IMG/VR virus record: IMGVR_UViG_2700989274_000005
Location: 1 to 20,931 of that record
Origin: a virus
Lineage: Duplodnaviria > Heunggongvirae > Uroviricota > Caudoviricetes
Strand: one strand, 5' to 3'
Length of the DNA stretch: 20,931 nucleotides
The notes beneath the pieces are model-generated. The model was not told the origin of the DNA. It saw only the letters and a list, made by a program, of their open reading frames with translations, and ran no database searches. The translations under genes were made by a program, and so were the position numbers. Of this stretch, positions 4,750-20,931 are shown piece after piece; positions within the stretch are counted from its first letter, which is position 1, and the number at the start of each line of letters is the position of its first letter.

Positions 4750-4910
4750 ACAGCTCCCCGTTTATTATTTATCTCCTCAGCCAGCCGCTGGGCTTTCAGC
4801 GGATTTCGGATAACAGAAAGGCCGGGAAATACCCAGCCTCGCTTTGTAACGGAGTAGACGAAAGTGATCGCGCCTACCCGGATATTATCGTGAGGATGCT
4901 TCATTGCCAT
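4722..4910 (-). CDS. Lambda orf60a-like small protein
   Basis: 62-aa ORF overlapping the exo start, as orf60a does in lambda. Confidence 0.45.
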
Positions 4911-5581
4911 TGCTCCCCATATACAAAACCAATTTCAGCCAGTGCCTCGTCCATTTTTTCGATGAACTCCGGCACCATCTCGTCAAAACTCGCCATGTAC
5001 TTTTCATTCCGCTCAACCACGACGTAATGCAGGCCTTCACGCTTCATGCGCGGGTCATAGTTGGCAAAGTACCAGGCATCTTTTCGCGTCACCCACATGC
5101 TGTACTGCACCTGGGCCATGTAAGCCGATTTTATTGCCTCGAAACCACCGAGCCGGAATTTCATGAAATCCCGGGAGGTAAACGGGCATTTCAGTTCAAG
5201 GCCGTTGCCGTCACTGCATAAACCATCGGGAGAGCAGGCGGTGCGCATATTTTCGTCGCGATAGATGATCGGGGATTCAGTAATATTCACGCCGGAAGTG
5301 AATTCAAACAGGGTTCTGGCGTCGTTCTCGTACTGTTTTCCCCAGGCCAGCGCCTTAGCATTAACTTCCGGAGCCACACCGGTGCAAACCTCAGCCAGCA
5401 GGGTGTGGAAGTAGGACATTTTCATGTCAGGCCACTTCTTTCCTGAGCGGGGCTTTGCTATCACGTTGTGAACTTCTGAAGCGGTGATGACGCCGAGCCG
5501 TAATTTGTGCCATGCATCATCCCCCTGTTCGACAACTCTCACGTCGATCCCGGTACGCTGCAGGATAATGTCCGGTGTCAT
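4901..5581 (-). CDS. exo: Lambda exonuclease (Red alpha)
   Basis: 226-aa [18 protein letters not shown]...; near-identical to lambda Exo as recalled; overlaps bet by 4 nt. Confidence 0.95.
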
Positions 5582-6363
5582 GCTGCCACCTTCTGCTCAG
5601 TGGCTTTCTGTTTAAGGAATCCAAGAGCTTTCACTGCTTCGGCCTGTGTCAGTTCTGACGATGCGCGAATGTCGCGGCGAAATATCTGGGAACAGAGCGG
5701 CAATAAGTCGTCATCCCATGTTTTATCCAGGGCGATCAGCAGAGTGTTAATCTCCTGCATGGTTTCATCGTTAACCGGAGTGATGTCGCGTTCCGGCTGA
5801 CGTTCTGCAGTGTATGCAGTATTTTCGACAATGCGCTCGGCTTCATCCTTGTCATAGATACCAGCAAATCCGAAGGCCAGACGGGCACACTGAATCATGG
5901 CTTTATGCCGTAACATCCGTTTGGGATGCGACTGCCACGGCCCCGTGATTTCTCTGCCTTCGCGGGTTTTGAATGGTTCGCGGCGGCATTCATCCATCCA
6001 CTCGGTAACGCAGATCGGATGATTGCGGTCTTTGCGGTAAATCCGGCATGTGCAGGATTCGTTGTCCTGTTCAAAGTCCATGCCGTCAAACTGCTGGTTT
6101 TCGTTGATGATGCGGGACCAGCCATCAACGCCCACCACCGGAACGATGCCGTTCTGCTTATCAGGGAAGGCGTAAATTTCTTTCGTCCACGGATTAAGAC
6201 CGTACTGGTTGGCGACGATCAGCAATGCGATGAACTGCGCATCGCTGGCATCACCTTTAAATGCCGTCTGGCGAAGAGTGGTGATCAGTTCCTGTGGGTC
6301 GACAGAATCCATGCCGACTCGTTCAGCCAGCTTCCCAGCCAGCGTTGCGAGTGCTGTACTCAT
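5578..6363 (-). CDS. bet: Lambda Bet (Red beta single-strand annealing protein)
   Basis: 261-aa [69 protein letters not shown]...; matches lambda Bet as recalled. Confidence 0.95.
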
Positions 6364-6368
6364 CCGTT

Positions 6369-6665
6369 TTATACCTCTGAATCAATATCAACCTGGTGGT
6401 GAGCAATGGTTTCAACCATGTACCGGATGTGTTCTGCCATGCGCTCCTGAAACTCAACATCGTCATCAAACGCACGGGTAATGGCTTTTTTGCTGACCCC
6501 GTGGCGTTGCAAATGATCGATGCATAGCGATTCAAACAGGTGCTGGGGCAGGCCTTTTTCCATGTCGTCTGCCAGTTCTGCCTCTTTCTCTTCACGGGCG
6601 ATCTGCTGGTAGTGACGCGCCCAGCTCTGAGCCTCAAGACGATCCTGAATGTAATAAGCGTTCAT
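6369..6665 (-). CDS. gam: Gam (RecBCD inhibitor), 98-aa GamS-length form
   Basis: 98-aa [24 protein letters not shown]... matching the C-terminal 98 aa of lambda Gam; AGGAG Shine-Dalgarno directly upstream; DNA upstream is not lambda-like. Confidence 0.9.
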
Positions 6666-6740
6666 GGCTGAACTCCTGAAAATGGCTGTGAAAATATCGC
6701 CCGCGAAATGCCAGGCTGATTAGGAAAACAGGAAAGGGGA

Positions 6741-7151
6741 TTAGTGATTCAGGCCGTTACCGCGTCCGTCGAGAAAAACTTCTACGAGCAAATCACGGGT
6801 ATAAGTGCGCTCGATGCCGCGATGCAGATAAAGCCGTCCGCGTAAATTAGCTGATGCAGTCCAGGTACCATCTTTGTGTTTGACCAGCATTCCTGGCATG
6901 ACCGCACCGCGATTAACGGTCTGCGTTCCGTAATGTTGATGAACCATAAAAACTCCTGCCCGTAAGCTGGGCTGCTGAACATATAGAGACTTCTGCGCGT
7001 ATTCAGGCGGTGGATGGCCGCCGGTTGTCATAACTAAGCCGCCTCGTTGAAGCGACTGAGGTATAAAGTGTTGTGTTGATTTCAGCTGGTCACACCGACG
7101 TTCACGCGTCCGTTTCACCCCTCGCACTCCCCGAAGCCTGCTGAAATTCAA
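6741..7151 (-). CDS. Hypothetical first gene of the early-left operon; Arg-rich N-terminus resembling N-family arginine-rich motifs; start codon uncertain
   Basis: Open frame begins at a TTG (7151). A GTG at 7118 has a GGGGAG Shine-Dalgarno and would start the protein at ...[15 protein letters not shown] (compare lambda N ...TRRRERRAEKQAQ). An internal ATG at 6947 has a strong AGGAG Shine-Dalgarno and gives a 68-aa product. Confidence 0.35.
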
Positions 7152-7224
7152 ACTGCGGATCTAAGCGGTCATCGCAACGGTGAAACAGGTGGTTACCGTA
7201 TCGTTGTGTCGTTGCGATGAATTT

Positions 7225-7300
7225 AATTTAAAACTATAGTTGTTTTATCGTCAACAACAAAAGTTGTTTTGTCGGTTGTTTTAAATATAACTGGTTGTAT
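7225..7300 (-). promoter_or_regulatory. Putative OL/pL: leftward promoter overlapped by repressor operator repeats
   Basis: Minus strand reads TTGACG-ataaaacaactatagtt-TTAAAT, nearly the same string as the putative pR. Cluster of GTTGTT-type half-sites (7239-7257, 7264-7280, 7293-7299). Confidence 0.5.
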
Positions 7301-7380
7301 TTAGGATGGATTTATTTTGTGACTTGCATCGCATAGCGATAACTGAAGTGAGGTGTGGTGGTTTTTTGGACGGTATGAGT

Positions 7381-7411
7381 TATGAGGGGGAGGAAAAGAA
7401 AACCCGGCGCG
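7381..7411 (-). terminator. Putative intrinsic terminator after the lipoprotein gene (minus strand)
   Basis: 7-bp GC-rich stem acccggc/gccgggt with 6-nt loop, followed on the minus strand by uuuucuuuucc; sits 18 nt beyond the lipoprotein stop. Confidence 0.55.
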
Positions 7412-7428
7412 GTTGCCGGGTATGATTA

Positions 7429-7809
7429 TCAGTCAGCCCAACCTGATTTCGAGTTTATTTGGGTTTCTGACATTGTGTATTTCTTAATCGTGTCATCGTT
7501 AAAAAGAATAGTAAGTTCTTTTTTCGTACCGTTCGTTCCATTATGGAATAATCCATAGAATGGAATAAAAGTGGTGCCATTAACTTTTACTTTTGCAAAG
7601 GCGTACTTCCAGATCTCGTTTCCACTGTCAGTATATGAAACAGCATCAGGAGAACCAAAGTAAGATTTAACCTCATTCTTGGTTGTTTTACCTTCCTGAA
7701 GTTTAGACTGGACACTAATTTCAGTTTCATTTTTGAGTTGCTGGTTGCCTGAAGAAGCACACCCAGCCAATACAGATGCCATCATGGCAGCGATTAGGAT
7801 TTTTCTCAT
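7429..7809 (-). CDS. Small lipoprotein cargo gene in the rexAB-equivalent position (between repressor gene and OL); possible SmpA/OmlA (BamE)-like fold
   Basis: 126-aa ORF MRKILIAAMMASVLAGCASS... with signal peptide and lipobox (LAGC); AT-rich; co-oriented with the repressor gene; has its own downstream terminator. Confidence 0.65.
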   Translation of the reverse strand: MRKILIAAMMASVLAGCASSGNQQLKNETEISVQSKLQEGKTTKNEVKSYFGSPDAVSYTDSGNEIWKYAFAKVKVNGTTFIPFYGLFHNGTNGTKKELTILFNDDTIKKYTMSETQINSKSGWAD

Positions 7810-8038
7810 TTTATGTTTCCATTCATTATAATCAGAAACATCTTAACATAATGATTCGAAATAAAAACCGCTACGAGATAGGGGGACATTTTGCTGACAG
7901 TAGCAACAAATCTCAGCTAACAACGAGAATATTTACTGAAATATGCAAACAGATTTGGCGTTCTTATAGAGAATTTAGTGCAATATCTAATCCGAGTGGT
8001 ATAAACCTTAACCTTCGCTCCCTTAAGTCGTAGATAAA

Positions 8039-8728
8039 TTAACCATGCTTCCTGTACGTCTGCGGCATGCTTCCAATGACCTTACCGAATATGAACACCC
8101 GGTTCATCTCGTCTTTCTCGATCGGGTCCCACGGCGAGTAGCTCTTGTTATCAGAGATAACCAGCAGCTTATCCTTCATCATTTGAAGACGTTTTACATG
8201 GGCAGTGTCGTCGTACAGAAACGCATAGATGCCATCACCGTCGAAAGATTTAACAGTGATATCAACGAACAGCAGGTCACCTGGTTCGATCGTCCCTGAC
8301 ATGCTGTCACCTCGCACGTTAATGATGCGGATATTTTCCGCCTTCCTGCCATCGAACATGTGACGAGCATCGTCAAACGAGTACTCAACCGAGCGTAGAA
8401 CTTCTACAAACTCACGGTTGATTACACCTGGCCCGGCACTGACTTCTATATCAAGAACGTCAATTTTGAAGTATTTGGAATGGCTGACAGTTGATTGTAT
8501 TGGTTGCACTGTACTGTCTGACATATTTCCAACGCCAGAAGATAACCATTCTGCGCGCACACCCAAAGCGTTCGCGATCTCCACGATTTTAGTTGTTTGG
8601 TTAGCTTTCCCTGTTTCGATTTTCTGAATAGCAGCCTGGCTAACCCCGACCAAATCCCCAAGCGCCTTTTGTGTAAGGCCTCGCGCTAATCTGGCTTCTT
8701 TAAGTCTTTCTGAGAGTGTTGTTTTCAT
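8039..8728 (-). CDS. CI-like prophage repressor (N-terminal XRE-type HTH, C-terminal S24 LexA-like autopeptidase domain)
   Basis: 229-aa ORF; HTH segment LTQKALGDLVGVSQAAIQKIETGK; C-terminal GDSM serine motif and KRL lysine motif typical of RecA-stimulated self-cleaving repressors; divergent from the cro-like gene. Confidence 0.85.
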   Translation of the reverse strand: MKTTLSERLKEARLARGLTQKALGDLVGVSQAAIQKIETGKANQTTKIVEIANALGVRAEWLSSGVGNMSDSTVQPIQSTVSHSKYFKIDVLDIEVSAGPGVINREFVEVLRSVEYSFDDARHMFDGRKAENIRIINVRGDSMSGTIEPGDLLFVDITVKSFDGDGIYAFLYDDTAHVKRLQMMKDKLLVISDNKSYSPWDPIEKDEMNRVFIFGKVIGSMPQTYRKHG

Positions 8729-8769
8729 AGATCAAATGTACAACCAAGGTTTTATTTCATCAAACGAAA

Positions 8770-8805
8770 ATGGTTGTTGACTAAAAACAACCATAGTTTT
8801 AATCT
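8770..8805 (+). promoter_or_regulatory. Putative OR/pR: operator palindrome overlapping a rightward promoter
   Basis: Perfect inverted repeat ATGGTTGTT-gactaaa-AACAACCAT (8770-8794); -35 TTGACT (8777-8782), 17-bp spacer, -10-like TAATCT (8800-8805); GGAGG Shine-Dalgarno before the cro-like ATG at 8833. Confidence 0.55.
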
Positions 8806-8832
8806 TTATTCGGATTAACCACGGAGGTTGTT

Positions 8833-9063
8833 ATGAACCCAGCAATCAAAACAGCGATCAATATCGTTGGTTCACAAAAGAAACTAGGCGATGCCTGCGA
8901 AGTTTCACAGCAGGCCGTCTATAAGTGGCTTCACAACAAAGCAAAGGTATCCCCTGAACATGTCGGCAGCATTGTTACGGCTACTGGTGGAGTTGTGAAG
9001 GCATACCAGATTCGCCCGGATCTTCCGAAGTTGTTTCCACACACCGAAAAGAACGCAGCTTAA
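8833..9063 (+). CDS. Cro-like HTH regulator (Cro/CI family)
   Basis: 76-aa ORF with HTH-like segment (QKKLGDACEVSQQAVYKW); first gene transcribed rightward from the operator region, divergent from the repressor gene. Confidence 0.7.
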   Translation: MNPAIKTAINIVGSQKKLGDACEVSQQAVYKWLHNKAKVSPEHVGSIVTATGGVVKAYQIRPDLPKLFPHTEKNAA

Positions 9064-9075
9064 ATTTCCATTTCA

Positions 9076-9084
9076 CGCTCTTTA
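9076..9084 (+). promoter_or_regulatory. boxA-like element (CGCTCTTTA) in nutR position
   Basis: Exact match to the boxA consensus, 13 nt after the cro-like stop, where lambda nutR lies; no canonical boxB hairpin seen next to it. Confidence 0.35.
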
Positions 9085-9132
9085 ACAATAAGCAATCAAC
9101 TTAACAGTCAATTCAAACTAAAGGAGTCAATT

Positions 9133-9672
9133 ATGCAACCACTTACATACCAACAGACTAGCGGATTTATTCCGACTGCGGTGATAAATCGTTCTCAAAC
9201 AAAACAAGCTCCAGGCCACGAAAAAATCCGTGATGCCGTCCGCGCCTGGTCGGCTGTAGATAATCAGGATGTCGTTGCCGCACTCATTGTGAATGAGTAT
9301 CGGGAGCAGGGCGACGGCACCATCGATTTCCCTGATGATGTCAGCCGTGCACGCCAGAAGCTGTTCCGCTTCCTCGATAACAAATTCGATTCTGAAAAAT
9401 ACCGAAATAACGTGCGTGAACTGACCCCGGCAATTCTGGCGGTACTACCGCTGGAATATCGCGGTTACCTGGTTGAGCAGGATAGCTTCATGACTCGGTT
9501 GGCTGAAATGGAAAAGGAACTCAGTGAGGCAAAACAGGCTGTCATTCTCAACGCACCACGCCACCAGAAACTGAAGGAAATGAGTGAAGGTATTGTGTCG
9601 ATGTTTCGTGTGGACCCGGATCTGGCTGGTCCATTAATGGCGATGGTGACCACCATGCTGGGGGCAATATGA
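9133..9672 (+). CDS. YdaT/CII-like prophage regulatory protein
   Basis: 179-aa ORF in the cII position; segment LTPAILAVLPLEYR resembles the YdaT-family segment I recall from Rac YdaT (LIPAILAILPRELR). Confidence 0.45.
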   Translation: MQPLTYQQTSGFIPTAVINRSQTKQAPGHEKIRDAVRAWSAVDNQDVVAALIVNEYREQGDGTIDFPDDVSRARQKLFRFLDNKFDSEKYRNNVRELTPAILAVLPLEYRGYLVEQDSFMTRLAEMEKELSEAKQAVILNAPRHQKLKEMSEGIVSMFRVDPDLAGPLMAMVTTMLGAI

Positions 9673-9758
9673 CAGGTTCAGAAATGGCGAAAGTCGGTCT
9701 GCGGGAACAGAACCGACTTTCAGGTGCAAATCGTAACACACTCATTGCGGGAGGAATT

Positions 9759-10688
9759 ATGGCAAACACTGCTGAGATATTCAATTTTCCAGTGCCGGAT
9801 GCGGCACAAAAGGAGCCGCGCGTGGCAGATCTCGATGATGGTTATACGCGCATTGCAAATGAGTTGCTGGAAGCTGTGATGCTGGCCGGATTAACACAGC
9901 ACCAGCTTCTGGTCTTCCTGGCTGTCATGCGCAAAACATATGGCTTTAATAAAAAACTGGATTGGGTGAGCAACGAGCAACTTTCCGAGTTGACCGGGAT
10001 ATTGCCGCACAAGTGTTCTGCTGCAAAAAGTGTTCTGGTAAAGCGTGGGATTTTTATTCAGAGCGGGCGGAATATCGGCATTAATAATGTGGTCAGTGAA
10101 TGGTCAACATTACCCGAATCAGGTAAGAAAAATAAAGTTTACCTGAAAGAGGTAAATTTACCTGAATCAGGTAAGAAAAGTTTACCCAAATCAGGTAAAG
10201 GCACTTACCCGAATCAGGTAAACACAAAATACAAACTAACAAAAGACAATATAAAACCTTTTTCGTCCGAGAATTCTGGCGAATCCTCTGACCAACCAGA
10301 AAACGATCTTCCTGTGGAGAAACCAGATGCTGCAATTCAGAGCGGCAGCAGGTGGGGGACAGCAGAAGACCTGACCGCCGCAGAGTGGATGTTTGACATG
10401 GTGAAGACCATCGCGCCATCAGCCAGAAAACCGAATTTTGCAGGGTGGGCTAACGATATCCGCCTGATGCGTGAACGTGACGGCCGTAACCACCGCGACA
10501 TGTGCGTGCTGTTCCGCTGGGCATGCCAGGACAACTTCTGGTCCGGTAACGTGCTAAGTCCGGCCAAACTCCGCGACAAGTGGACCCAACTCGAAATCAA
10601 CCGTAACAAGCAACAGGCTGGCGTGATAGCCGGAAAATCAAAACTCGACCTGACAAACACTGACTGGATTTACGGGGTGGATTTATGA
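9759..10688 (+). CDS. Replication initiator O-like protein (likely start at 9759; the longer frame opens at 9669)
   Basis: N-terminus MANTAEIFNF...VADLDDGYTRIANELLEA parallels lambda O (MTNTAKILNF...VADLDDGYARLSNMLLEA); GGGAGG Shine-Dalgarno before 9759; iterons inside the gene; stop overlaps the P start. Confidence 0.8.
   Translation: MANTAEIFNFPVPDAAQKEPRVADLDDGYTRIANELLEAVMLAGLTQHQLLVFLAVMRKTYGFNKKLDWVSNEQLSELTGILPHKCSAAKSVLVKRGIFIQSGRNIGINNVVSEWSTLPESGKKNKVYLKEVNLPESGKKSLPKSGKGTYPNQVNTKYKLTKDNIKPFSSENSGESSDQPENDLPVEKPDAAIQSGSRWGTAEDLTAAEWMFDMVKTIAPSARKPNFAGWANDIRLMRERDGRNHRDMCVLFRWACQDNFWSGNVLSPAKLRDKWTQLEINRNKQQAGVIAGKSKLDLTNTDWIYGVDL
10110..10222. repeat. Replication origin iterons (five 18-bp repeats, consensus TTACCyGAATCAGGTAAr) within the O gene, followed by an AT-rich stretch to about 10260
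   Basis: Repeats at 10110-10127, 10139-10156, 10158-10175, 10182-10199, 10205-10222, each internally palindromic (ttacc...ggtaa); encode repeated LPESGKK-like peptide in O; AT-rich tract follows. Confidence 0.8.
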
Positions 10689-12040: not shown

Positions 12041-13459
12041 TTAGAAAATAATGTTTGCTATATCCGAGATAGCATTTAAAGAACCTCTGTGGTCACTTCC
12101 TGTTTTAGGTAAAATATAGGAATATCGAGGGTCTTCATTATATGTTAACTTCCAGTGTTTTCCATCGCTTGACGCACTGAAACCTAAGTCCTTTAAATTT
12201 CTTTGTGTTGCGCTATCCATGCTTCTGTAACCTGTTAAAGTCCTTTTAAGTAATTGGCGGCGACTCTCGGTTTCTTTATTGTATTCATTATTGGCAATTA
12301 GGGATGATAAGATATGGTAGCTTCTACCAAATTCATTTTTATTTTTTATGGCAGTTTTTAGTGCGTCAATAATTATATTTTTGATTTCTCCATCAAAAAA
12401 ATCAGTCTCTTCACCAGCATTAAGCACAATGCTTCCTTGGGCTGAAGCTTGTGATTGAAGAGTGCGTACTCTGTGCTCTAAAGAGGAGATCTTATGCTTA
12501 AGATCTTCTATTTGGTCATCTTTCGCAACATTATCGGCTTCGTAAAGCGCCATCAGTTCGCGTGTGTATTCTCCTCTTTCTTTGAGTGAGTTAATAGAGT
12601 CTTTCGTTTTTCTGGTTTGTATCTCACTCCATCCACTATCTGAGACAGGAGCCATTGTAGTCGTAGCTCTTACAACATCATCAAATAACTCATCTTCAAA
12701 TTCTTTTGCGGTTTTCTCACCACGGCGATAAAAACTGATATTTTGACCCCGTGGCCAATAGATACCAACAGCACCAGCATAGGCATTTTTAGCATTTGTC
12801 TCATTTTTTAGCTTAATAGAAAATAGTCTATTGCTAGGCTCAATTAATACATGTGCTAATCCGCATACCTTTCTTGCAAGGCGTTCTGGGATGATATTGT
12901 GAGCATGTTCATTAAAAAAATACTTGGAGCTAACGTATATTATTGGTAGTCTGTTGTCAGTTTCACCATTTATAACTTTAGCTGCTATATTTAAATGTTC
13001 ATCAGTATCATCTAAGGAATGAGGTTCGACTGACACCTTGAAAATATCATCAAGACCACCAGAAAATTTATCAATCAATCTCATAACAACTAATGGTTTC
13101 TTAGGTTGCGGGGCTAGATAAGCTGCATCTTGGCTTACAACGCTAGATTCCACCTGAATCCACATGGTATCAGTTTTGAGATTTTTATTAATTGAAATAT
13201 CTGTTACCCATTTGTGTGGCTCAGATATTTTCGAATACCTAAAACAGCCTAAACTAGTATCTTTGTTTTTATAAGTTATTATATCAATTCTTTCATTTTT
13301 AGACTCTATGAAGTACTCCTCGCTTTTATAATCACATACTAATTGTGCTGGAATAAAAGTTGTATGTGGTGAGTCGTTTACCCAAGAAAAACATTCATTA
13401 AAGATCTCAGCTAGAGATGTGGAGTTTGAAACATAAAAACCAGTTGAGAAATATTTCAT
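12041..13459 (-). CDS. Orphan 472-aa protein, no recognised family; low-GC cargo gene antisense to the early-right operon
   Basis: 1.4-kb uninterrupted ORF in AT-rich DNA; AAGGA Shine-Dalgarno 7 nt before the ATG; no Walker A or HExxH seen; heptad-like charged segment around aa 300-340 (DDQIEDLKHKISSLEHRVRTLQSQ). Confidence 0.75.
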   Translation of the reverse strand: MKYFSTGFYVSNSTSLAEIFNECFSWVNDSPHTTFIPAQLVCDYKSEEYFIESKNERIDIITYKNKDTSLGCFRYSKISEPHKWVTDISINKNLKTDTMWIQVESSVVSQDAAYLAPQPKKPLVVMRLIDKFSGGLDDIFKVSVEPHSLDDTDEHLNIAAKVINGETDNRLPIIYVSSKYFFNEHAHNIIPERLARKVCGLAHVLIEPSNRLFSIKLKNETNAKNAYAGAVGIYWPRGQNISFYRRGEKTAKEFEDELFDDVVRATTTMAPVSDSGWSEIQTRKTKDSINSLKERGEYTRELMALYEADNVAKDDQIEDLKHKISSLEHRVRTLQSQASAQGSIVLNAGEETDFFDGEIKNIIIDALKTAIKNKNEFGRSYHILSSLIANNEYNKETESRRQLLKRTLTGYRSMDSATQRNLKDLGFSASSDGKHWKLTYNEDPRYSYILPKTGSDHRGSLNAISDIANIIF

Positions 13460-15224: not shown

Positions 15225-15271
15225 ATGCGTGATATTCAGATGGTTCTTGAGCGTTGGGGAGCGTGGGCGGC
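15225..15271 (+). CDS. Q-like late antiterminator, 5' fragment only (first 15 codons), truncated by the assembly gap
   Basis: ATG at 15225 encodes MRDIQMVLERWGAWA..., the N-terminus of DLP12-type Q (QuuD) as recalled; runs into the N run at 15272. Confidence 0.6.
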
Positions 15272-15281
15272 NNNNNNNNNN
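15272..15281. other. Assembly gap (10 N) joining prophage sequence to an unrelated chromosomal locus
   Basis: Run of 10 N; upstream is the prophage Q start, downstream is the interior of an autotransporter gene. Confidence 0.95.
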
Positions 15282-15282
15282 C

Positions 15283-18200
15283 ATCGTCAATAACGAAGGC
15301 GAGAGCACTATCACCAATGGCGGCACCGGCACTCAGATCAACGGTAACGACGCCACCGCGAATAACAGTGGAAAAACCACTGTTGATGGAAAAGATTCCA
15401 CGGGTACCAAAATCGCGGGCAATATCGGCATTGTAAATCTGGATGGTAGCCTGACTGTTACAGGCGGTGCGCATGGTGTTGAGAACATTGGTGACAACGG
15501 CACGGTTAACAACAAAGGAGATATTGTTGTTTCCGATACTGGATCGATTGGCGTGCTCATCAACGGTGAGGGGGCAACAGTATCCAATACGGGTGATGTT
15601 AACGTTAGCAATGAAGCGACAGGGTTCAGCATCACAACCAACAGTGGGAAGGTTTCGCTGGCAGGCAGTATGCAGGTTGGCGATTTCTCGACCGGGGTAG
15701 ATCTTAATGGCAACAATAACAGCGTGACGCTGGCGGCAAAAGATCTAAAAGTGGTCGGGCAGAAAGCGACGGGCATAAACGTTTCTGGCGATGCGAATAC
15801 AGTGAATATCACTGGTAACGTTCTGGTTGATAAGGATAAAACCGCAGACAATGCGGCGGAATATTTCTTCGATCCATCCGTGGGTATCAACGTTTACGGC
15901 AGTGATAATAACGTGACGCTGGATGGAAAGTTAACTGTTGTATCAGACAGTGAGGTTACTTCTCGTCAGAGTAATTTATTTGATGGCAGCGCAGAGAAAA
16001 CGTCAGGTCTGGTTGTGATTGGCGATGGCAATACCGTTAATATGAATGGTGGACTTGAACTGATTGGAGAGAAAAACGCGCTTGCAGATGGGTCGCAGGT
16101 TGCTTCCTTGCGCACAGGATATAGTTATACCAGCGTTATTGTCGTTAGTGGTGAGTCGTCGGTATATCTGAATGGAGATACGACAATCAGCGGAGAATTC
16201 CCTCTGGGGTTTGCCGGGGTTATTCGGGTACAGGATAAAGCTTTGCTGGAAATTGGCAGTGGCGCTACGCTAACAATGCAGGATATTGACAGTTTTGAAC
16301 ATCATGGGACAAGAACCCCAGAACTTACTTATGCTGATTCCGGTGCGAAAATTGTTAATAAAGGTACTGTTGAAATTCAGAATTTAGGTTTTGCTTTTGT
16401 TACTGGTGAAAATACAACAGGTATAAATAGTGGCACGATCTCGTTATTACAAAATGGTAAAGATCCGGCACCGTCTCCCATTGTTTTACTGGCTACTAAC
16501 GGAGGGAGCGCCACTAATGCAGGTACGATCACAGGTAAAGTGACGGAACAACATAGCGTATTTAACAAGTATTCAACGGGCACATCGAATTCATTTATTT
16601 TTAATAACGATGTCAGTAGCATAACAGGGTTAGTCGCTCAATCGAATAGCACAATTATCAATACTGACAGCGGCATCATTGATTTGTATGGTCGTGGTAG
16701 TGTCGGCATGCTTGCTATAGCAGATTCAACAGCAGAAAATCAGGGTAAAATTACACTGGATTCTATGTGGGTACATGCAAATGACACTACCGCAATGCGA
16801 GATATAGCTAGCAACAGCGCCATTGACTTCGGTACAGGTGTGGGAGTTGGTACTGATAGTTATAGTGGTGCAGGGAAAAATGCAACAGCAATTAACCAAT
16901 TGGGCGGTGTTATAACTATTTATAACGCCGGCGCAGGTATGGCGGCCTATGGCGCCAGCAATACAGTTATTAACCAGGGGACGATTAACCTCGAAAAAAA
17001 TGGTAATTATGACGATAGTCTGGCAGCAAATACTCTGGTAGGGATGGCTGTTTATGAGCATGGTACTGCTATCAACGACCAGACGGGTGTTATCAATATC
17101 AATGTTGGTACTGGTCAGGCGTTTTATAACGATGGCACAGGAACAATTGTTAACTATGGTACAATCTGCACTTTCGGCGTGTGCCAATCGGGGAATGAGT
17201 ACAATAATACAGATGATTTCACCTCACTGATCTATACCGGTGGCGATACGATTACACGAAGCGGAGAAACTGTAACGCTAAATAAATCTGCTGCTGTGAC
17301 TGATAAGCTGGCTGGGAATGTTGTTAATAGCGGAACGCTTTCCGGTGATCAAATTACGGTATCAAGCGGTCTTCTGGAAAATACCAGCGGTGGCATCATC
17401 AATAACTTAGTAAAACTTGACAAGGGTGCCGTCATTAAAAATGCCGGGGTGATGACGAATAACGTCGATGTTAGCGGTGGAATCCTCAATAATGCCGGAG
17501 AAATGACTGCGCAAATTACCATGAATGCTGGTGCTGATAGTTCGTTAGTGAACAACACCGGAACCATCAATAAAATCGTGCAGAACGCGGGGGTATTCAA
17601 TAATAGTGGCAGTGTAACAGGGCGGATGATGTCGGCTGGCGGGGTCTTTAATAATCAAACTGACGGGGCGATTATGAGAGGTGCTGCGCTGACAGGTACT
17701 GCAGTGGCAAATAACGAAGGAACCTGGAACCTCGGAAGTAGTAGTGAGGGTAACAACACCGGGATGCTGGAAGTTAATAATAATTCAGCTTTCAATAACC
17801 GCGGCGAGTTTATTCTTGATAACGACAAGAATGCTGTGCACATCAACCAGTCCGGTACGCTTTATAATACCGGTCACATGAACATCAGTAATTCTTCCCA
17901 CAACGGAGCCGTTAATATGTGGGGCGGAAATGGTCGTTTTATCAATGACGGAACGATTGATGTTTCTGCGAAGTCACTGGTAGTCAGCGCTAATAATGCC
18001 GGCGATCAGAATGCCTTCTTCTGGAACCAGGATAACGGGGTCATCAACTTCGATCACGACAGCGCCAGTGCCGTGAAAGTCACCCACAGCAACTTTATTG
18101 CCCAGAATGACGGCATCATGAACATCAGCGGCACCGGTGCTGTGGCTATGGAAGGTGATAAGAACGCGCAGCTGGTTAACAATGGCACCATCAACCTCGG

Positions 18201-19863
18201 TACCGCAGGCACTACTGACACGGGTATGATCGGTATGCAACTCGATGCCAACGCCACGGCGGATGCGGTAATCGAAAACAACGGCACCATCAATATCTTC
18301 GCCAATGACTCGTTTGCATTTAGCGTACTGGGTACAGTAGGTCATGTGGTTAACAACGGCACGGTGGTGATTGCCGATGGGGTTACGGGTTCTGGACTGA
18401 TCAAGCAGGGCGACAGCATCAATGTTGAAGGTATGAACGGTAACAACGGTAATAGCAGCGAAGTGCATTATGGCGACTATACGTTGCCGGATGTGCCGAA
18501 GCCCAATACGGTTAGTGTAACGTCGGGAAGTGATGAGGCTGGTGGCAGCATGAACAACCTCAACGGCTATGTCGTCGGTACCAACGTTAACGGCAGCGCC
18601 GGGAAGCTGAAGGTTAACAATGCCAGCATGAACGGCGTGGAGATTAACACGGGCTTTACCGCTGGTACGGCAGACACCACTGTGAGTTTTGATAACGTAG
18701 TGGAAGGTAGCAACCTGACCGACGCTGACGCCATCACCTCAACGTCCGTGGTATGGACTGCCAAAGGCAGCACCGATGCCAGCGGTAACGTTGACGTCAC
18801 CATGAGCAAAAATGCCTACACCGATGTGGCAACAGATGCCTCGGTGAATGACATCGCGAAAGCACTGGATGCGGGTTACACCAACAACGAACTGTTTACC
18901 AGCCTGAACGTCGGCACGACTGCTGAACTGAACAGTGCTCTGAAACAGGTCAGCGGTAGCCAGGCGACCACGGTATTCCGCGAAGCGCGCGTGTTAAGCA
19001 ACCGCTTTAGTATGCTGGCAGATGCCGCGCCGAAAGTGGGTAACGGTCTGGCGTTCAACGTTGTCGCGAAAGGCGATCCGCGTGCCGAGTTAGGTAATAA
19101 TACCGAATACGACATGCTGGCATTGCGTAAAACTATCGACCTGAGCGAAAGCCAGACGATGAGTCTGGAGTACGGTATCGCTCGTCTCGATGGTGATGGT
19201 GCGCAGAAAGCGGGTGATAATGGCGTTACAGGCGGTTATAGCCAGTTTTTTGGCCTGAAACATCAGATGTCGTTCGATAACGGCATGAACTGGAATAACG
19301 CCTTGCGTTACGACGTTCACAACCTTGACAGCAGCCGCTCGATTGCATTTGGCAACACGAACAAAACGGCTGATACCGACGTGAAACAGCAGTACCTGGA
19401 GTTCCGCAGCGAAGGGGCGAAGACTTTCGAACCGAGCGAAGGACTGAAGGTTACGCCATATGCGGGTGTAAAACTGCGTCACACACTGGAAGGTGGCTAT
19501 CAGGAGCGCAATGCCGGAGACTTTAACCTGAATATGAACAGTGGCAGCGAAACGGCGGTGGACAGCATCGTCGGGCTGAAACTGGACTACGCAGGTAAAG
19601 ACGGCTGGAGCGCTAGCGCTACGCTGGAAGGCGGGCCGAACCTGAGCTACGCGAAGAGCCAGCGTACGGCAAGCCTGGCAGGCGCAGGCAGTCAGCACTT
19701 TAACGTCGATGACGGTCAGAAGGGCGGCGGCATCAATAGCCTGACAAGCGTCGGCGTGAAGTACAGCAGCAAAGAAAGTTCGCTGAATCTGGATGCGTAC
19801 AACTGGAAAGAGGATGGCATCAGCGATAAAGGCGTGATGCTGAACTTTAAGAAAACGTTCTAA
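15283..19863 (+). CDS. ydbA: YdbA-like autotransporter (beta-helical passenger plus C-terminal beta-barrel translocator), 5'-truncated at the gap
   Basis: About 1526 in-frame codons after the gap; Gly/Asn/Thr/Val-rich repetitive passenger; C-terminal about 280 aa with alternating barrel-like pattern ending in a terminal Phe (...LNFKKTF); followed by ydbC as in K-12. Confidence 0.8.
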   Translation: MVNNEGESTITNGGTGTQINGNDATANNSGKTTVDGKDSTGTKIAGNIGIVNLDGSLTVTGGAHGVENIGDNGTVNNKGDIVVSDTGSIGVLINGEGATVSNTGDVNVSNEATGFSITTNSGKVSLAGSMQVGDFSTGVDLNGNNNSVTLAAKDLKVVGQKATGINVSGDANTVNITGNVLVDKDKTADNAAEYFFDPSVGINVYGSDNNVTLDGKLTVVSDSEVTSRQSNLFDGSAEKTSGLVVIGDGNTVNMNGGLELIGEKNALADGSQVASLRTGYSYTSVIVVSGESSVYLNGDTTISGEFPLGFAGVIRVQDKALLEIGSGATLTMQDIDSFEHHGTRTPELTYADSGAKIVNKGTVEIQNLGFAFVTGENTTGINSGTISLLQNGKDPAPSPIVLLATNGGSATNAGTITGKVTEQHSVFNKYSTGTSNSFIFNNDVSSITGLVAQSNSTIINTDSGIIDLYGRGSVGMLAIADSTAENQGKITLDSMWVHANDTTAMRDIASNSAIDFGTGVGVGTDSYSGAGKNATAINQLGGVITIYNAGAGMAAYGASNTVINQGTINLEKNGNYDDSLAANTLVGMAVYEHGTAINDQTGVININVGTGQAFYNDGTGTIVNYGTICTFGVCQSGNEYNNTDDFTSLIYTGGDTITRSGETVTLNKSAAVTDKLAGNVVNSGTLSGDQITVSSGLLENTSGGIINNLVKLDKGAVIKNAGVMTNNVDVSGGILNNAGEMTAQITMNAGADSSLVNNTGTINKIVQNAGVFNNSGSVTGRMMSAGGVFNNQTDGAIMRGAALTGTAVANNEGTWNLGSSSEGNNTGMLEVNNNSAFNNRGEFILDNDKNAVHINQSGTLYNTGHMNISNSSHNGAVNMWGGNGRFINDGTIDVSAKSLVVSANNAGDQNAFFWNQDNGVINFDHDSASAVKVTHSNFIAQNDGIMNISGTGAVAMEGDKNAQLVNNGTINLGTAGTTDTGMIGMQLDANATADAVIENNGTINIFANDSFAFSVLGTVGHVVNNGTVVIADGVTGSGLIKQGDSINVEGMNGNNGNSSEVHYGDYTLPDVPKPNTVSVTSGSDEAGGSMNNLNGYVVGTNVNGSAGKLKVNNASMNGVEINTGFTAGTADTTVSFDNVVEGSNLTDADAITSTSVVWTAKGSTDASGNVDVTMSKNAYTDVATDASVNDIAKALDAGYTNNELFTSLNVGTTAELNSALKQVSGSQATTVFREARVLSNRFSMLADAAPKVGNGLAFNVVAKGDPRAELGNNTEYDMLALRKTIDLSESQTMSLEYGIARLDGDGAQKAGDNGVTGGYSQFFGLKHQMSFDNGMNWNNALRYDVHNLDSSRSIAFGNTNKTADTDVKQQYLEFRSEGAKTFEPSEGLKVTPYAGVKLRHTLEGGYQERNAGDFNLNMNSGSETAVDSIVGLKLDYAGKDGWSASATLEGGPNLSYAKSQRTASLAGAGSQHFNVDDGQKGGGINSLTSVGVKYSSKESSLNLDAYNWKEDGISDKGVMLNFKKTF

Positions 19864-19883
19864 TTTTTAGCATGTGATCCCTA

Positions 19884-19917
19884 AACCGCAACGCTGATAC
19901 AGGTTGCGGTTTTTTTA
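19884..19917 (+). terminator. Intrinsic terminator downstream of the autotransporter gene
   Basis: 9-bp stem aaccgcaac/gttgcggtt with 10-nt loop, followed by a T7 run. Confidence 0.75.
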
Positions 19918-20070
19918 TTGCCGGATGTGGTACGTGACGCGTTTTGTTTTGTGTCTTTCAGGACAATAGAGCAACTCATCCAGTAATCTTGTTTACACCT
20001 TCGCATTATTTATCTCTTTTCGTTTCTATACTGATTTTTCTTAATCCGTTTTATTACAGGGCAGGGTGCG

Positions 20071-20931
20071 ATGAGCAGCAATACATTTACTCTCGGTACA
20101 AAATCCGTTAACCGTCTTGGTTATGGCGCGATGCAACTGGCAGGTCCTGGAGTTTTTGGCCCCCCACGAGATCGCCACGTCGCTATAACCGTGCTGCGTG
20201 AGGCGCTGGCATTGGGCGTCAATCATATTGATACCAGCGACTTTTATGGTCCGCACGTCACCAATCAGATTATCCGCGAAGCGCTTTATCCTTACTCTGA
20301 CGACCTGACAATTGTCACTAAAATTGGTGCGCGGCGTGGAGAGGACGCATCCTGGTTGCCCGCATTTTCTCCTGCAGAGCTGCAAAAAGCGGTGCACGAT
20401 AATCTACGTAATCTCGGGCTGGACGTGCTGGATGTGGTTAACCTGCGCGTTATGATGGGGGATGGTCATGGCCCAGCGGAAGGATCGATTGAGGCCAGCC
20501 TGACCGTGCTGGCAGAGATGCAACAACAAGGCCTGGTAAAACATATTGGCCTGAGCAACGTCACACCGACGCAGGTTGCAGAGGCGCGCAAGATTGCCGA
20601 AATTGTCTGTGTGCAAAACGAATACAACATCGCGCACCGTGCTGATGATGCAATGATTGATGCTTTGGCCCACGATGGCATTGCCTACGTGCCGTTCTTC
20701 CCGCTCGGGGGCTTTACACCGCTGCAATCGTCCACACTTTCCGATGTTGCTGCGAGCCTGGGTGCAACACCAATGCAGGTGGCGCTGGCGTGGCTGTTAC
20801 AGCGTTCACCGAATATTTTGCTGATCCCAGGGACGTCTTCGATTGCGCATTTACGGGAGAATATGGCTGCTGAAAAATTGCAACTTTCTGAGGAAGTGTT
20901 GTCTACGTTGGATGGTATTTCGCGAGAATAA
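20071..20931 (+). CDS. ydbC: Aldo-keto reductase family oxidoreductase
   Basis: 286-aa ORF with aldo-keto reductase signatures (LGYGAMQL, IDTSDFYG); matches E. coli YdbC as recalled; stop codon is the last three bases of the window. Confidence 0.8.
   Translation: MSSNTFTLGTKSVNRLGYGAMQLAGPGVFGPPRDRHVAITVLREALALGVNHIDTSDFYGPHVTNQIIREALYPYSDDLTIVTKIGARRGEDASWLPAFSPAELQKAVHDNLRNLGLDVLDVVNLRVMMGDGHGPAEGSIEASLTVLAEMQQQGLVKHIGLSNVTPTQVAEARKIAEIVCVQNEYNIAHRADDAMIDALAHDGIAYVPFFPLGGFTPLQSSTLSDVAASLGATPMQVALAWLLQRSPNILLIPGTSSIAHLRENMAAEKLQLSEEVLSTLDGISRE

What the first reader, a model, noticed from the sequence alone, without database searches (positions are those of the whole stretch)
7381..8038. 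Lipoprotein gene in the rexAB-equivalent position of the immunity region
Seen: a 126-aa ORF with a textbook lipoprotein signal peptide (lipobox LAGC) lies between the repressor gene and the putative OL/pL. It is co-oriented with the repressor and followed by its own GC-stem terminator. Established: lambda carries the exclusion genes rexA/rexB in this position, co-expressed with cI in lysogens. Inference: a lysogenic-conversion or exclusion lipoprotein, for example one masking an outer-membrane phage receptor. A faint SmpA/OmlA (BamE)-like motif is seen by eye only.
Basis: partly seen in the sequence, partly recalled or inferred. Interest (0 to 1): 0.55.

Follow-up and report, generated by a model that had tools for sequence, protein, structure and literature searches.

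The report
Prophage cargo gene: BamE-like lipoprotein
A dormant lambda-like virus in E. coli carries, next to its repressor gene, a strongly conserved add-on gene for an outer-membrane lipoprotein that resembles the cell's BamE protein; its position suggests it protects or alters the host cell, but its function has never been tested.

Summary
A 126-aa lipoprotein ORF (7429-7809, minus strand; lipobox LAGC, Cys17) lies between cI (8039-8728) and OL/pL (7219-7304). It is co-oriented with cI and ends at a GC hairpin terminator (7402-7421).

Comparison with sibling phages shows that 7422-8038 is a swappable cargo slot. It runs from the cI stop codon to a terminator that belongs to the phage backbone. 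Sibling and related phages hold other cargo there, including known or candidate defence genes (PDC-M11, BstA).

The protein is a divergent BamE/SmpA-OmlA-fold lipoprotein with a 14-residue insertion in a family-specific loop, and that loop is the best-conserved segment among close relatives. Purifying selection is very strong (omega below 0.05).

Close relatives are almost all phage-borne and sit in two classic cargo slots: downstream of unrelated repressors, and between the tail chaperone and the tape measure gene (the HK97 gp15 slot). They usually carry a conserved extended -10 promoter motif.

No function is known. An envelope-level exclusion role is the best guess. Masking of the phage's own receptor is not favoured, because the gene is not linked to the receptor-binding J domain. 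This is a new variant of a known kind, of moderate interest.

The parts
7429..7809 (-). Lipoprotein gene, 126 aa. Signal peptide is aa 1-16, lipobox LAGC, lipidated Cys17 (codon 7761-7759), Ala at +2. The BamE/SmpA-OmlA-like domain covers about aa 30-122.
   Evidence: phrog_3135 (unknown function) matches at 2.9e-48. RefSeq names the identical protein 'BamE' or 'SEN1984 family lipoprotein'.
7534..7590 (-). Codons for aa 74-92 (VKVNGTTFIPFYGLFHNGT). This loop holds the 14-residue insertion relative to BamE. It is nearly invariant among close relatives, and Pro83 is nearly invariant across the wide family. AlphaFold confidence is low here. Predicted partner-binding surface (inference).
7840..7848 (-). 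Predicted extended -10 promoter element TGtTAAGAT (TG at 7848-7847, hexamer at 7845-7840). The predicted transcription start is near 7833, giving a leader of about 25 nt with a GGA Shine-Dalgarno sequence.
   Evidence: The motif TGnTAnnAT lies 36-43 nt upstream of the ATG in 43 of 68 distinct upstream sequences from both phage slots (44 carry it; one lies at 48 nt), often only about 15-25 nt after an upstream terminator. It was not found by the generic promoter scan. It is predicted, not mapped.
7810..8038 (-). AT-rich (33-39% GC) spacer between the cI stop codon and the lipoprotein start. It contains the promoter motif and a degenerate remnant of the upstream terminator seen in relatives (about 7862-7875).
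   Evidence: The remnant is not stable (z -0.41). There is no homology to sibling phages in this stretch.
7392..7421 (-). Rho-independent terminator (7-bp GC stem at 7421-7402 plus UUUUCUUUU). It is the backbone terminator of the immunity transcription unit (tIMM-like) and is shared with sibling phages that carry other cargo.
7422..8038 (.). Variable cargo slot. Homology to sibling phages PhiR47_2 and PhiR68_2 stops at the terminator stem and resumes exactly at the cI stop codon.
8039..8728 (-). cI-type repressor (HTH_3 + Peptidase_S24), upstream of and co-oriented with the lipoprotein gene.
7219..7304 (-). OL/pL: four RGTTGTW half-sites and the pL-like promoter TTGACG-18-TAAATT (7254-7225), reading leftward into kil-gam-bet-exo.
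8739..8832 (.). OR/pRM/pR region between cI and cro. It has four half-sites, including the perfect palindrome ATGGTTGTT-N7-AACAACCAT.

Best explanation
The segment 7422-8038 is cargo (a moron) inserted in the slot between the cI stop codon and the immunity-operon terminator of a lambda-like prophage. It encodes a Lol-sorted outer-membrane lipoprotein. Its periplasmic domain is a divergent BamE/SmpA-OmlA (BLIP-like) fold with a 14-residue, nearly invariant aromatic loop (FIPFYGLFHNG).

It is probably transcribed in lysogens in two ways: by read-through from pRM/pRE, because no stable terminator follows cI, and from its own extended -10 promoter (TGtTAAGAT).

Inferred mechanism: the lipid-anchored domain binds a conserved envelope component through the invariant loop. 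This changes the lysogen's envelope so that incoming phages, or other invading DNA or toxins, are stopped at or just inside the outer membrane. That would be superinfection exclusion in the broad sense.

Shown here: the anatomy, the cargo nature, the fold, the strong constraint and the recurrent slots. Inferred: lipidation, outer-membrane location, expression in lysogens, the binding partner and the exclusion phenotype.
For: Cargo nature:
- Sibling phages share the backbone on both sides of the slot but carry PDC-M11 (GevT/GevA) or two unknown genes there.
- GC content is 33-43% against 51-54% in the flanks.
- Identical or 98-99% identical lipoprotein genes are found with a different cI/cro pair (L103, L107).

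Recurrent slots among relatives of at least 60% identity:
- 63 loci lie downstream of, and co-oriented with, repressors of several unrelated types.
- 33 loci lie between the tail chaperone-like gene and the tape measure gene. This is the slot of the HK97 gp15 exclusion moron (PMC3594210).
- A Providencia relative lies between Q and the holin gene.

Expression logic:
- A conserved TGnTAnnAT motif sits at a fixed distance from the ATG in both slots. Tail-slot copies need their own promoter to be expressed in lysogens.
- A subgroup without the motif starts about 60 nt after the cI stop codon.

Fold:
- hhalign to E. coli BamE: 88.5% probability, E 2.7e-6.
- Pfam BamE matches 52 of 61 distant relatives.

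Constraint: omega below 0.05 with saturated synonymous sites.

Defence neighbourhood:
- BstA lies between cI and this gene in phage S107.
- The cI-N region is a known defence hotspot (PMC8585504).
- The tail slot also holds SocA/Panacea and YafO toxin genes and other small signal-peptide proteins.

Precedent: lipoproteins of E. coli temperate phages (mEpimmI) exclude phages experimentally (PMC11893012).
Against: - There is no experimental or database evidence of function. PADLOC gives no hit. The PHROG family has unknown function. Literature searches found nothing beyond the ROD21 annotation of SEN1984.
- The gene is not linked to the receptor-binding J domain and does not co-vary with tape measure proteins. 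Cor/Llp/Ltp-type exclusion proteins are usually tied to one of these.
- The extreme conservation is unusual for an arms-race protein.
- Distant family members sit in housekeeping or secretion contexts: nuo-rpmE, atpG-atpD, TpsA-TpsB, and F-type tra clusters. The fold therefore has non-defence uses.
- The promoter is only a conserved motif. The generic scan missed it and the -35 region is poor.
- The key loop is modelled with low confidence.
Confidence: 0.4

Rival explanations
1. BAM or Omp85 modulator. The protein is a phage-borne BamE paralogue that docks on BamA/BamD, or on another POTRA-containing Omp85-family machine. It would tune outer-membrane protein assembly in the lysogen, for example to accommodate the phage's own beta-barrel cargo or to alter envelope homeostasis. 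Any phage exclusion would be a side effect, for example on BamA-dependent phages or CDI toxins.
For: - Homology and fold match to BamE.
- A distant relative lies between a TpsA hemagglutinin and its ShlB/FhaC-type (Omp85 family) transporter in Paraburkholderia.
- Relatives lie inside F-type tra clusters next to outer-membrane components on 111 Burkholderia plasmids.
- PhiR26_1 itself carries three beta-barrel cargo genes: a porin, Lom and an omptin.
- Very strong conservation fits a conserved host partner.
Against: - The score is below Pfam's BamE cut-off and no NCBIfam BamE model is hit.
- The 14-residue loop insertion is absent from BamE.
- The allele is present in only 78 of 5426 E. coli genomes.
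- From general knowledge, many prophages carry nmpC, lom or ompT without this gene.
- The BLIP/BamE fold is a generic small binding module, also used by OsmE, BtiO and YjgB.
Confidence: 0.2
2. A general fitness or lysogenic-conversion factor unrelated to mobile-element exclusion. Candidates are a stress or osmotic-tolerance lipoprotein (OsmE-like), a serum-resistance or virulence factor (like the Bor, Iss and TraT lipoproteins), or an immunity or inhibitor protein against a periplasm-acting toxin or enzyme (BLIP-like or BtiO-like).
For: - The family name comes from SEN1984 in the Salmonella Enteritidis pathogenicity island ROD21.
- Bor/Iss-type lipoproteins are carried by the same kind of prophage.
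Against: - Close relatives occur in prophages of plant-associated, environmental and marine bacteria: Pectobacterium, Rouxiella, Buttiauxella and a Pseudidiomarina phage. This argues against a mammal-specific serum-resistance role.
- No toxin or effector gene is consistently adjacent.
- Immunity proteins usually diversify, whereas this one is under strong purifying selection.
- SEN1984 has no reported phenotype.
Confidence: 0.25
3. The gene serves the phage's own lytic cycle, for example tail or tape measure function, DNA ejection or lysis, rather than the lysogen.
For: A third of the phage-borne close relatives, and several distant ones (Klebsiella RAH1, Morganella, Pectobacterium, Pseudidiomarina), lie immediately upstream of the tape measure gene inside the late tail operon.
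Against: - The same gene (78-84% identical) sits in the immunity region of other phages, co-oriented with cI and opposite to late transcription.
- Many phages with the same tail and J genes lack it.
- It is flanked by terminators and has its own promoter motif in the tail slot.
- A Sec/Lol-exported lipoprotein cannot be a virion assembly chaperone in the cytoplasm (inference).
Confidence: 0.05

Closest known systems
BamE (SmpA/OmlA; Pfam PF04355), lipoprotein subunit of the beta-barrel assembly machine
   Different: It is prophage cargo, not a core chromosomal gene (78 of 5426 E. coli genomes). It scores below the Pfam cut-off and hits no NCBIfam BamE model. It carries a 14-residue conserved insertion (FIPFYGLFHNG loop) and a conserved C-terminal GWAD. 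RefSeq has renamed it from 'BamE' to 'SEN1984 family lipoprotein'.
Lambda rexA/rexB and Salmonella BTP1 bstA (cargo of the cI-to-pL slot)
   Same: Same slot, same orientation as cI, ending at a terminator before OL/pL. In phage S107 the lipoprotein shares the slot with BstA.
   Different: There is no sequence or architectural similarity. RexAB and BstA are cytoplasmic or inner-membrane abortive-infection systems, whereas this is a single exported lipoprotein.
HK97 gp15 moron (superinfection exclusion; between tail chaperone and tape measure gene)
   Same: A third of close relatives occupy exactly this tail-module slot as promoter-plus-terminator cassettes.
   Different: gp15 is a small YebO-like inner-membrane protein whose specificity depends on the incoming tail (PMC3594210). 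This protein is an unrelated outer-membrane lipoprotein that does not co-vary with tape measure proteins.
Cor (phi80/N15), Llp (T5), Lpp of mEpimmI phages, Ltp (TP-J34): phage lipoproteins that exclude superinfecting phages
   Same: Small phage-encoded lipoproteins expressed in the infected or lysogenic cell and acting in the envelope. The mEpimmI Lpp proteins are encoded in the structural cluster.
   Different: No detectable homology. Those proteins track the receptor or tape measure type of their phage. This one is not linked to the J receptor-binding domain.
Bor/Iss and TraT (lipoproteins of mobile elements that confer serum resistance or surface exclusion)
   Same: Outer-membrane lipoproteins carried as cargo by lambdoid prophages and plasmids. 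Distant relatives of this family sit in F-type tra clusters.
   Different: No sequence similarity. The family is also common in non-pathogenic environmental hosts.

Membership tests
Bacterial lipoprotein (Lgt/Lsp/Lnt substrate) | Signal peptide with a K/R n-region, a hydrophobic core and the lipobox [LVI][ASTVI][GAS]C with Cys at position 15-35 | tested here: met
   The sequence MRK-ILIAAMMASV-LAGC has Cys17. Cys17 is invariant in both alignments and Gly16 in the close one. Pfam LPAM_1 matches only weakly. SignalP and LipoP were not available.
Bacterial lipoprotein (Lgt/Lsp/Lnt substrate) | Actual lipidation and outer-membrane location | not testable with these tools
   The only indication is the +2 rule: Ala18, not Asp, predicts Lol export to the outer membrane.
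BamE (PF04355; BAM complex subunit) | Match to the SmpA_OmlA/BamE domain model above the curated threshold | tested here: not met
   21.8 bits against a cut-off of 23.2. No NCBIfam BamE model was hit. At family level, 52 of 61 distant relatives match at E up to 0.01 and hhalign gives 88.5% probability. Domain-level homology is therefore likely, but formal membership of this protein is not reached.
BamE (PF04355; BAM complex subunit) | Alpha-alpha-beta-beta-beta BamE/BLIP-like fold | tested here: met
BamE (PF04355; BAM complex subunit) | Single-copy core chromosomal gene | tested here: not met
   The gene is prophage cargo, present in 78 of 5426 E. coli genomes. Relatives of at least 60% identity are almost all in prophage slots.
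BamE (PF04355; BAM complex subunit) | Binds BamD/BamA and supports outer-membrane protein assembly | not testable with these tools
   No complex prediction or experiment was possible.
Moron (Juhala/Hendrix definition, as given in PMC3594210) | Extra DNA that is absent from otherwise related phage genomes | tested here: met
   PhiR47_2 and PhiR68_2 share both flanks but have other genes in the slot.
Moron (Juhala/Hendrix definition, as given in PMC3594210) | Base composition different from the neighbouring genes | tested here: met
   33-43% GC over 7400-8000 against 51-54% in exo-bet-gam-kil.
Moron (Juhala/Hendrix definition, as given in PMC3594210) | Own promoter and terminator | tested here: inconclusive
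   A conserved extended -10 motif lies 36-43 nt upstream of the ATG in 43 of 68 distinct upstream sequences (44 carry it, one at 48 nt), but it has not been mapped and the generic scan did not find it. A terminator is present, but in this phage it belongs to the backbone.
Moron (Juhala/Hendrix definition, as given in PMC3594210) | Expressed from the repressed prophage | not testable with these tools
   Inferred from co-orientation with cI, the lack of a stable intervening terminator, and the relatives fused directly to cI.
Lambda RexAB | Located between cI and OL/pL and co-transcribed with cI | tested here: met
   The position is met. Co-transcription is inferred.
Lambda RexAB | Homology to RexA or RexB; a two-protein sensor plus ion-channel system | tested here: not met
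   No RexA or RexB hit in Pfam, PHROGs or PADLOC. The slot holds a single exported lipoprotein.
Cor/Llp-type receptor-masking exclusion lipoproteins | Sequence homology to Cor, Llp or Lpp | tested here: not met
   The best PHROG is phrog_3135, of unknown function. tblastn against 50,697 phage records finds only 19 records, none of them Cor- or Llp-bearing model phages.
Cor/Llp-type receptor-masking exclusion lipoproteins | Genetic linkage or co-variation with the phage's receptor-binding protein | tested here: not met
   The J C-terminal 249 aa of PhiR26_1 is 96-100% identical in at least 40 listed other phages (55 records at 90% or more, including PhiR26_1) that lack the gene. The gene sits in the immunity or tape measure slot, not next to J or stf.
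Cor/Llp-type receptor-masking exclusion lipoproteins | Blocks adsorption or DNA entry of specific phages | not testable with these tools
   Needs plating and adsorption assays.
SEN1984 family lipoprotein (NCBI PGAP name) | Assigned to the family by NCBI's annotation evidence | not tested
   RefSeq names the identical protein WP_001226568.1 in this way in recent annotations. No matching model was found in NCBIfam release 20.0. The SEN1984 sequence itself was not available for comparison.

The most novel reading that the evidence does not exclude
A phage-borne BamE mimic. The lipoprotein would use its BamE-like body and the invariant FIPFYGLFHNG loop to dock on the BAM complex, or on another Omp85-family or outer-membrane machine, of the lysogen. 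It would lock or remodel that machine from the periplasmic side. This would create a new, receptor-independent way to close the outer membrane to incoming phages, CDI toxins or conjugative DNA, spread as a portable cassette among phages, plasmids and islands.
Probability: 0.12. Interest if true: 0.75.

Novelty: new variant of a known kind. Interest (0 to 1): 0.42.

Why it matters
Prophage cargo next to the repressor is among the most highly expressed prophage DNA in lysogens, and it has repeatedly yielded defence systems such as RexAB and BstA.

This lipoprotein family has three notable properties:
- It is widespread in prophages of Enterobacterales.
- It moves between the two classic exclusion slots of lambdoid phages.
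- It is under unusually strong purifying selection.

It has no tested function, and until recently it was mis-annotated as the housekeeping protein BamE. If it blocks phage or DNA entry by binding a conserved envelope machine, it would add a new structural class to envelope-level defences. It could also affect host range in phage therapy. If instead it modulates BAM, it would be a rare case of a virus tuning outer-membrane biogenesis. In either case the annotation 'BamE' in many genomes should be read with caution.

Tried and rejected
Searches that gave nothing useful:
- The generic sigma-70 scan found no promoter upstream of the gene on the minus strand. The TATAAT at 7830-7825 is palindromic and would cut off the Shine-Dalgarno sequence, so I rejected it in favour of the conserved TGnTAAGAT motif.
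- Rfam found nothing credible in 6600-9800.
- PADLOC had no hit for the lipoprotein.
- A PDB sequence search found only signal-peptide noise.
- NCBIfam hits covered the signal peptide only.
- The search for related loci with the distant alignment A3 failed because it had no conserved stretch.
- The afdb50 fold library was unavailable.
- Literature searches for SEN1984, PhiR26, PV340555, BamE-like phage proteins, SmpA/OmlA prophage proteins and GevT/GevA gave no functional data.

Ideas considered and dropped:
- By eye I compared the conserved upstream element with sigma-E, sigma-28 and sigma-54 promoters, an RcsB box, CsrA sites and a 5' UTR hairpin. None fitted consistently across relatives, and the inverted repeat I2 is not conserved in Citrobacter.
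- The plus-strand ORFs 7382-7558 and 7776-8033 have no support and overlap the conserved minus-strand gene or the spacer.
- A tape measure-specific target is unlikely. The lipoprotein stays 78-84% identical while neighbouring tape measure proteins are only 49-95% identical to the two reference proteins.
- A spanin (Rz1-like) role was rejected because the gene is not in the lysis cassette.
Full report
**What is in the window**

The window holds a lambda-like prophage of E. coli. Over 7300-8100 it is 100% identical to Escherichia phage PhiR26_1 (PV340555.1).

The left arm reads on the minus strand:
- exo 4901-5581
- bet 5578-6363
- gam 6369-6665
- kil at about 6741-7120
- a non-coding stretch
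- the 126-aa ORF at 7429-7809
- a 229-bp spacer
- cI at 8039-8728 (HTH_3 + Peptidase_S24)

On the plus strand follow a YdaS-like cro (8833-9063), a YdaT-like cII (9133-9672) and O.

The operator half-site RGTTGTW clusters at only two places, 7238-7299 and 8739-8832. Long inverted matches tie 7219-7304 to 8762-8811. A pL-like promoter (TTGACG-18-TAAATT) lies at 7254-7225 on the minus strand.

**The gene is real and encodes a lipoprotein precursor**

The N-terminus MRK-ILIAAMMASV-LAGC is a canonical lipoprotein signal peptide with Cys17. Cys17 is invariant in 37 close and 61 distant relatives, and Gly16 is invariant among the close ones. Ala at +2 predicts sorting to the outer membrane by the established Asp+2 retention rule.

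Against relatives from Citrobacter, Salmonella, Klebsiella and Serratia prophages, the mature part has dN of 0.07-0.12 (up to 0.20 for the most distant pair) while synonymous sites are saturated. Omega was 0.045 in the one pair where it could be computed. This is an old, strongly constrained gene.

**The slot and its borders**

Sibling phages from the same collection, PhiR47_2 and PhiR68_2, align with the window through pL/OL and up to and including the hairpin CCCGGC-N6-GCCGGG at 7402-7421. They align again exactly from the cI stop codon at 8039.

Between these points they carry different cargo:
- PhiR47_2 carries GevT/GevA, which match the PADLOC defence candidates PDC-M11A and PDC-M11B (2e-133 and 7e-52).
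- PhiR68_2 carries two unknown genes.

So 7422-8038 is a swappable cargo slot. The 'own terminator' is in fact the backbone terminator of the immunity unit (dG -14.1 kcal/mol, z -3.4). GC content is 33-43% in the cargo against 51-54% in the flanks.

In Salmonella phage S107 the same lipoprotein (82% identical) follows cI and BstA and precedes N. The literature describes the cI-N interval as a mosaic hotspot that holds rexAB in lambda and bstA in BTP1 (PMC8585504).

**A mobile cassette with two favourite homes**

I collected 147 loci that encode relatives and classified them against a panel of reference proteins. Among relatives of at least 60% identity:
- 63 loci lie downstream of, and co-oriented with, repressors of several unrelated types. 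These repressors range from 100% down to 22% identity to the window's cI, or belong to the S107, L003 or L002 types.
- 33 loci lie in the tail module, between the DUF6246 chaperone-like gene and the tape measure gene. This is the slot of the original moron, HK97 gene 15 (PMC3594210).

Other contexts:
- A 52% relative in Providencia lies between Q and the holin gene.
- More distant relatives (35-50% identity) occur in F-type tra clusters of 111 Burkholderia plasmids and on a ParAB contig.
- Others lie between a TpsA and its Omp85-type TpsB in Paraburkholderia, between atpG and atpD in Moraxella, next to nuo and ribosomal protein genes in Zetaproteobacteria, and in a Pseudidiomarina phage tail module.
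- RefSeq's family name refers to SEN1984 in the ROD21 island of S. Enteritidis, which has no known function.

**Transcription signals**

In both phage slots most cassettes have the same layout. An upstream rho-independent terminator comes first, followed after about 15-25 nt by TGnTA(A/G)GAT. The stretch TTCCGATTGCAATCAAnGGA then runs up to the ATG, and a second terminator follows the stop codon.

The TGnTAnnAT motif lies 36-43 nt before the ATG in 43 of 68 distinct upstream sequences (44 carry it; one lies at 48 nt). A -10 hexamer alone occurs in 7 more. Of the 17 sequences without either, 12 belong to a subgroup in which the gene starts about 60 nt after the cI stop codon.

I read the motif as an extended -10 promoter. 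In the window it lies at 7848-7840 on the minus strand. This is a prediction.

In the window the upstream terminator is degenerate (z -0.41). Read-through from pRM and the cassette's own promoter could therefore both drive the gene. All three arrangements fit expression in the lysogen.

**What the protein looks like**

Sequence evidence:
- Pfam BamE scores 21.8 bits, just under the cut-off of 23.2.
- 52 of 61 distant relatives hit PF04355.
- A family profile aligns to E. coli BamE with 88.5% probability, leaving a 14-residue insertion.

Structure evidence:
- Two AlphaFold models (pLDDT 67.9 and 72.1) give a confident alpha-alpha-beta-beta-beta-beta core. The loop at about residues 74-90 has low confidence.
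- The viral structure library returns SmpA/OmlA lipoproteins of Pseudomonas phages.

The low-confidence loop (VKVNGTTFIPFYGLFHNGT) is the most conserved segment among close relatives. Pro83 is nearly invariant across the wide family. I take the loop to be the likely interaction surface; this is an inference.

**Function**

Nothing is known. PADLOC has no model, phrog_3135 has unknown function, and the papers found give no data.

The slots, the neighbours (BstA, PDC-M11, SocA/Panacea, YafO and other small exported proteins) and the precedent of exclusion lipoproteins in E. coli temperate phages (PMC11893012) make envelope-level exclusion the best single guess.

- The J C-terminal domain of PhiR26_1 is 96-100% identical in at least 40 listed other phages (55 records at 90% or more, including PhiR26_1). 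These are absent from the 19 phage records that hold any homologue of the lipoprotein.
- The lipoprotein stays 78-84% identical next to tape measure proteins that are only 49-95% identical to the two reference proteins.

Strong conservation across genera points to a conserved host partner. The rival explanations are modulation of BAM or an Omp85-family machine, and a stress, virulence or immunity role. Neither is excluded.

**Verdict**

The gene is a portable, strongly constrained, BamE-fold lipoprotein cargo gene. It is a new variant of the known kind 'prophage-encoded envelope lipoproteins'. Interest is moderate.

Noticed in passing
window 15272-15282 (junction); 1-1284; 15229-20931: The prophage sits at the lambda attachment site, with ybhC (pectinesterase-like) at 1-1284 and a lambda-type integrase at 1419-2489. 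Its right arm stops after rusA, near 15272, and is joined to ydbA (BigA-like autotransporter, 15229-19863) and pdxI (20071 onward). These genes are not neighbours of ybhC in other E. coli, and none of 5426 complete genomes spans the junction. This is a truncated prophage with a rearrangement, or an assembly chimera.
   Followed up: partly
window 7140-7226 (minus strand): The 5' leader of the predicted pL transcript folds into an 11-bp stem enclosing a second stem (dG -20.8 kcal/mol, z -3.26). The sequence is nearly invariant in PhiR47_2 and also in PhiR68_2, whose operators differ. There is no N gene between pL and kil. This may be a put- or nut-like antitermination or regulatory RNA. Rfam has no match.
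   Followed up: partly
window 12041-13459 (minus strand): A 472-aa gene in the nin region is annotated 'PD-lambda-1' in PhiR26_1. It has no Pfam domain and only a weak PADLOC match (HEC-07, 1e-9). It is a second likely defence cargo gene in the same prophage.
   Followed up: partly
L167 3630-5058 (PhiR47_2); L168 3612-5067 (PhiR68_2): The same cI-to-terminator slot holds PDC-M11A/B (annotated GevT/GevA) in PhiR47_2 and two unannotated genes (341 and 149 aa) in PhiR68_2. The latter pair is an untested candidate system.
   Followed up: partly
L016 2989-3911 (Salmonella phage S107): BstA, which lies between cI and the lipoprotein, is split into two ORFs of 255 and 62 aa that match BstA profile positions 3-238 and 237-291. 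This is a frameshift or a sequencing error.
   Followed up: no
many loci, e.g. L002, L016, L022, L122, L130, L162 (upstream) and window 7402-7421, L024 (downstream): Very similar terminator sequences (CCCGGCCACCGCGCCGGGTTTTT-like) flank the lipoprotein cassette on both sides in different phages. They may serve as recombination joints for cassette exchange.
   Followed up: no
L006-L008 6381-6668 (Serratia prophages); L133/L154; L146/L148/L156: In the tail slot the lipoprotein is often followed by another small exported protein. In Serratia this is a 95-aa signal-peptide protein whose ATG overlaps the lipoprotein's stop codon. Elsewhere it is a second lipobox protein (MTRISVVAILSLILTGC).
   Followed up: no
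L063/L066 (Moraxella); L055 (Paraburkholderia); L018 (Burkholderia plasmids): Distant family members sit in unexpected places: between atpG and atpD inside the ATP synthase operon, between a TpsA hemagglutinin and its ShlB/FhaC transporter, and after traH in F-type transfer clusters.
   Followed up: partly
L169 (PhiR26_1 record 15616-16713, 18489-18782, 39522-40121, 46781-47734): PhiR26_1 carries an unusually rich set of envelope cargo genes besides the lipoprotein: an OmpD/NmpC-like porin, Bor, Lom and an omptin.
   Followed up: no
RefSeq E. coli genomes (hits H14-H38): The identical protein is named 'outer membrane protein assembly factor BamE' in most RefSeq genomes and 'SEN1984 family lipoprotein' in the newest ones. 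The older name is a likely over-annotation.
   Followed up: yes
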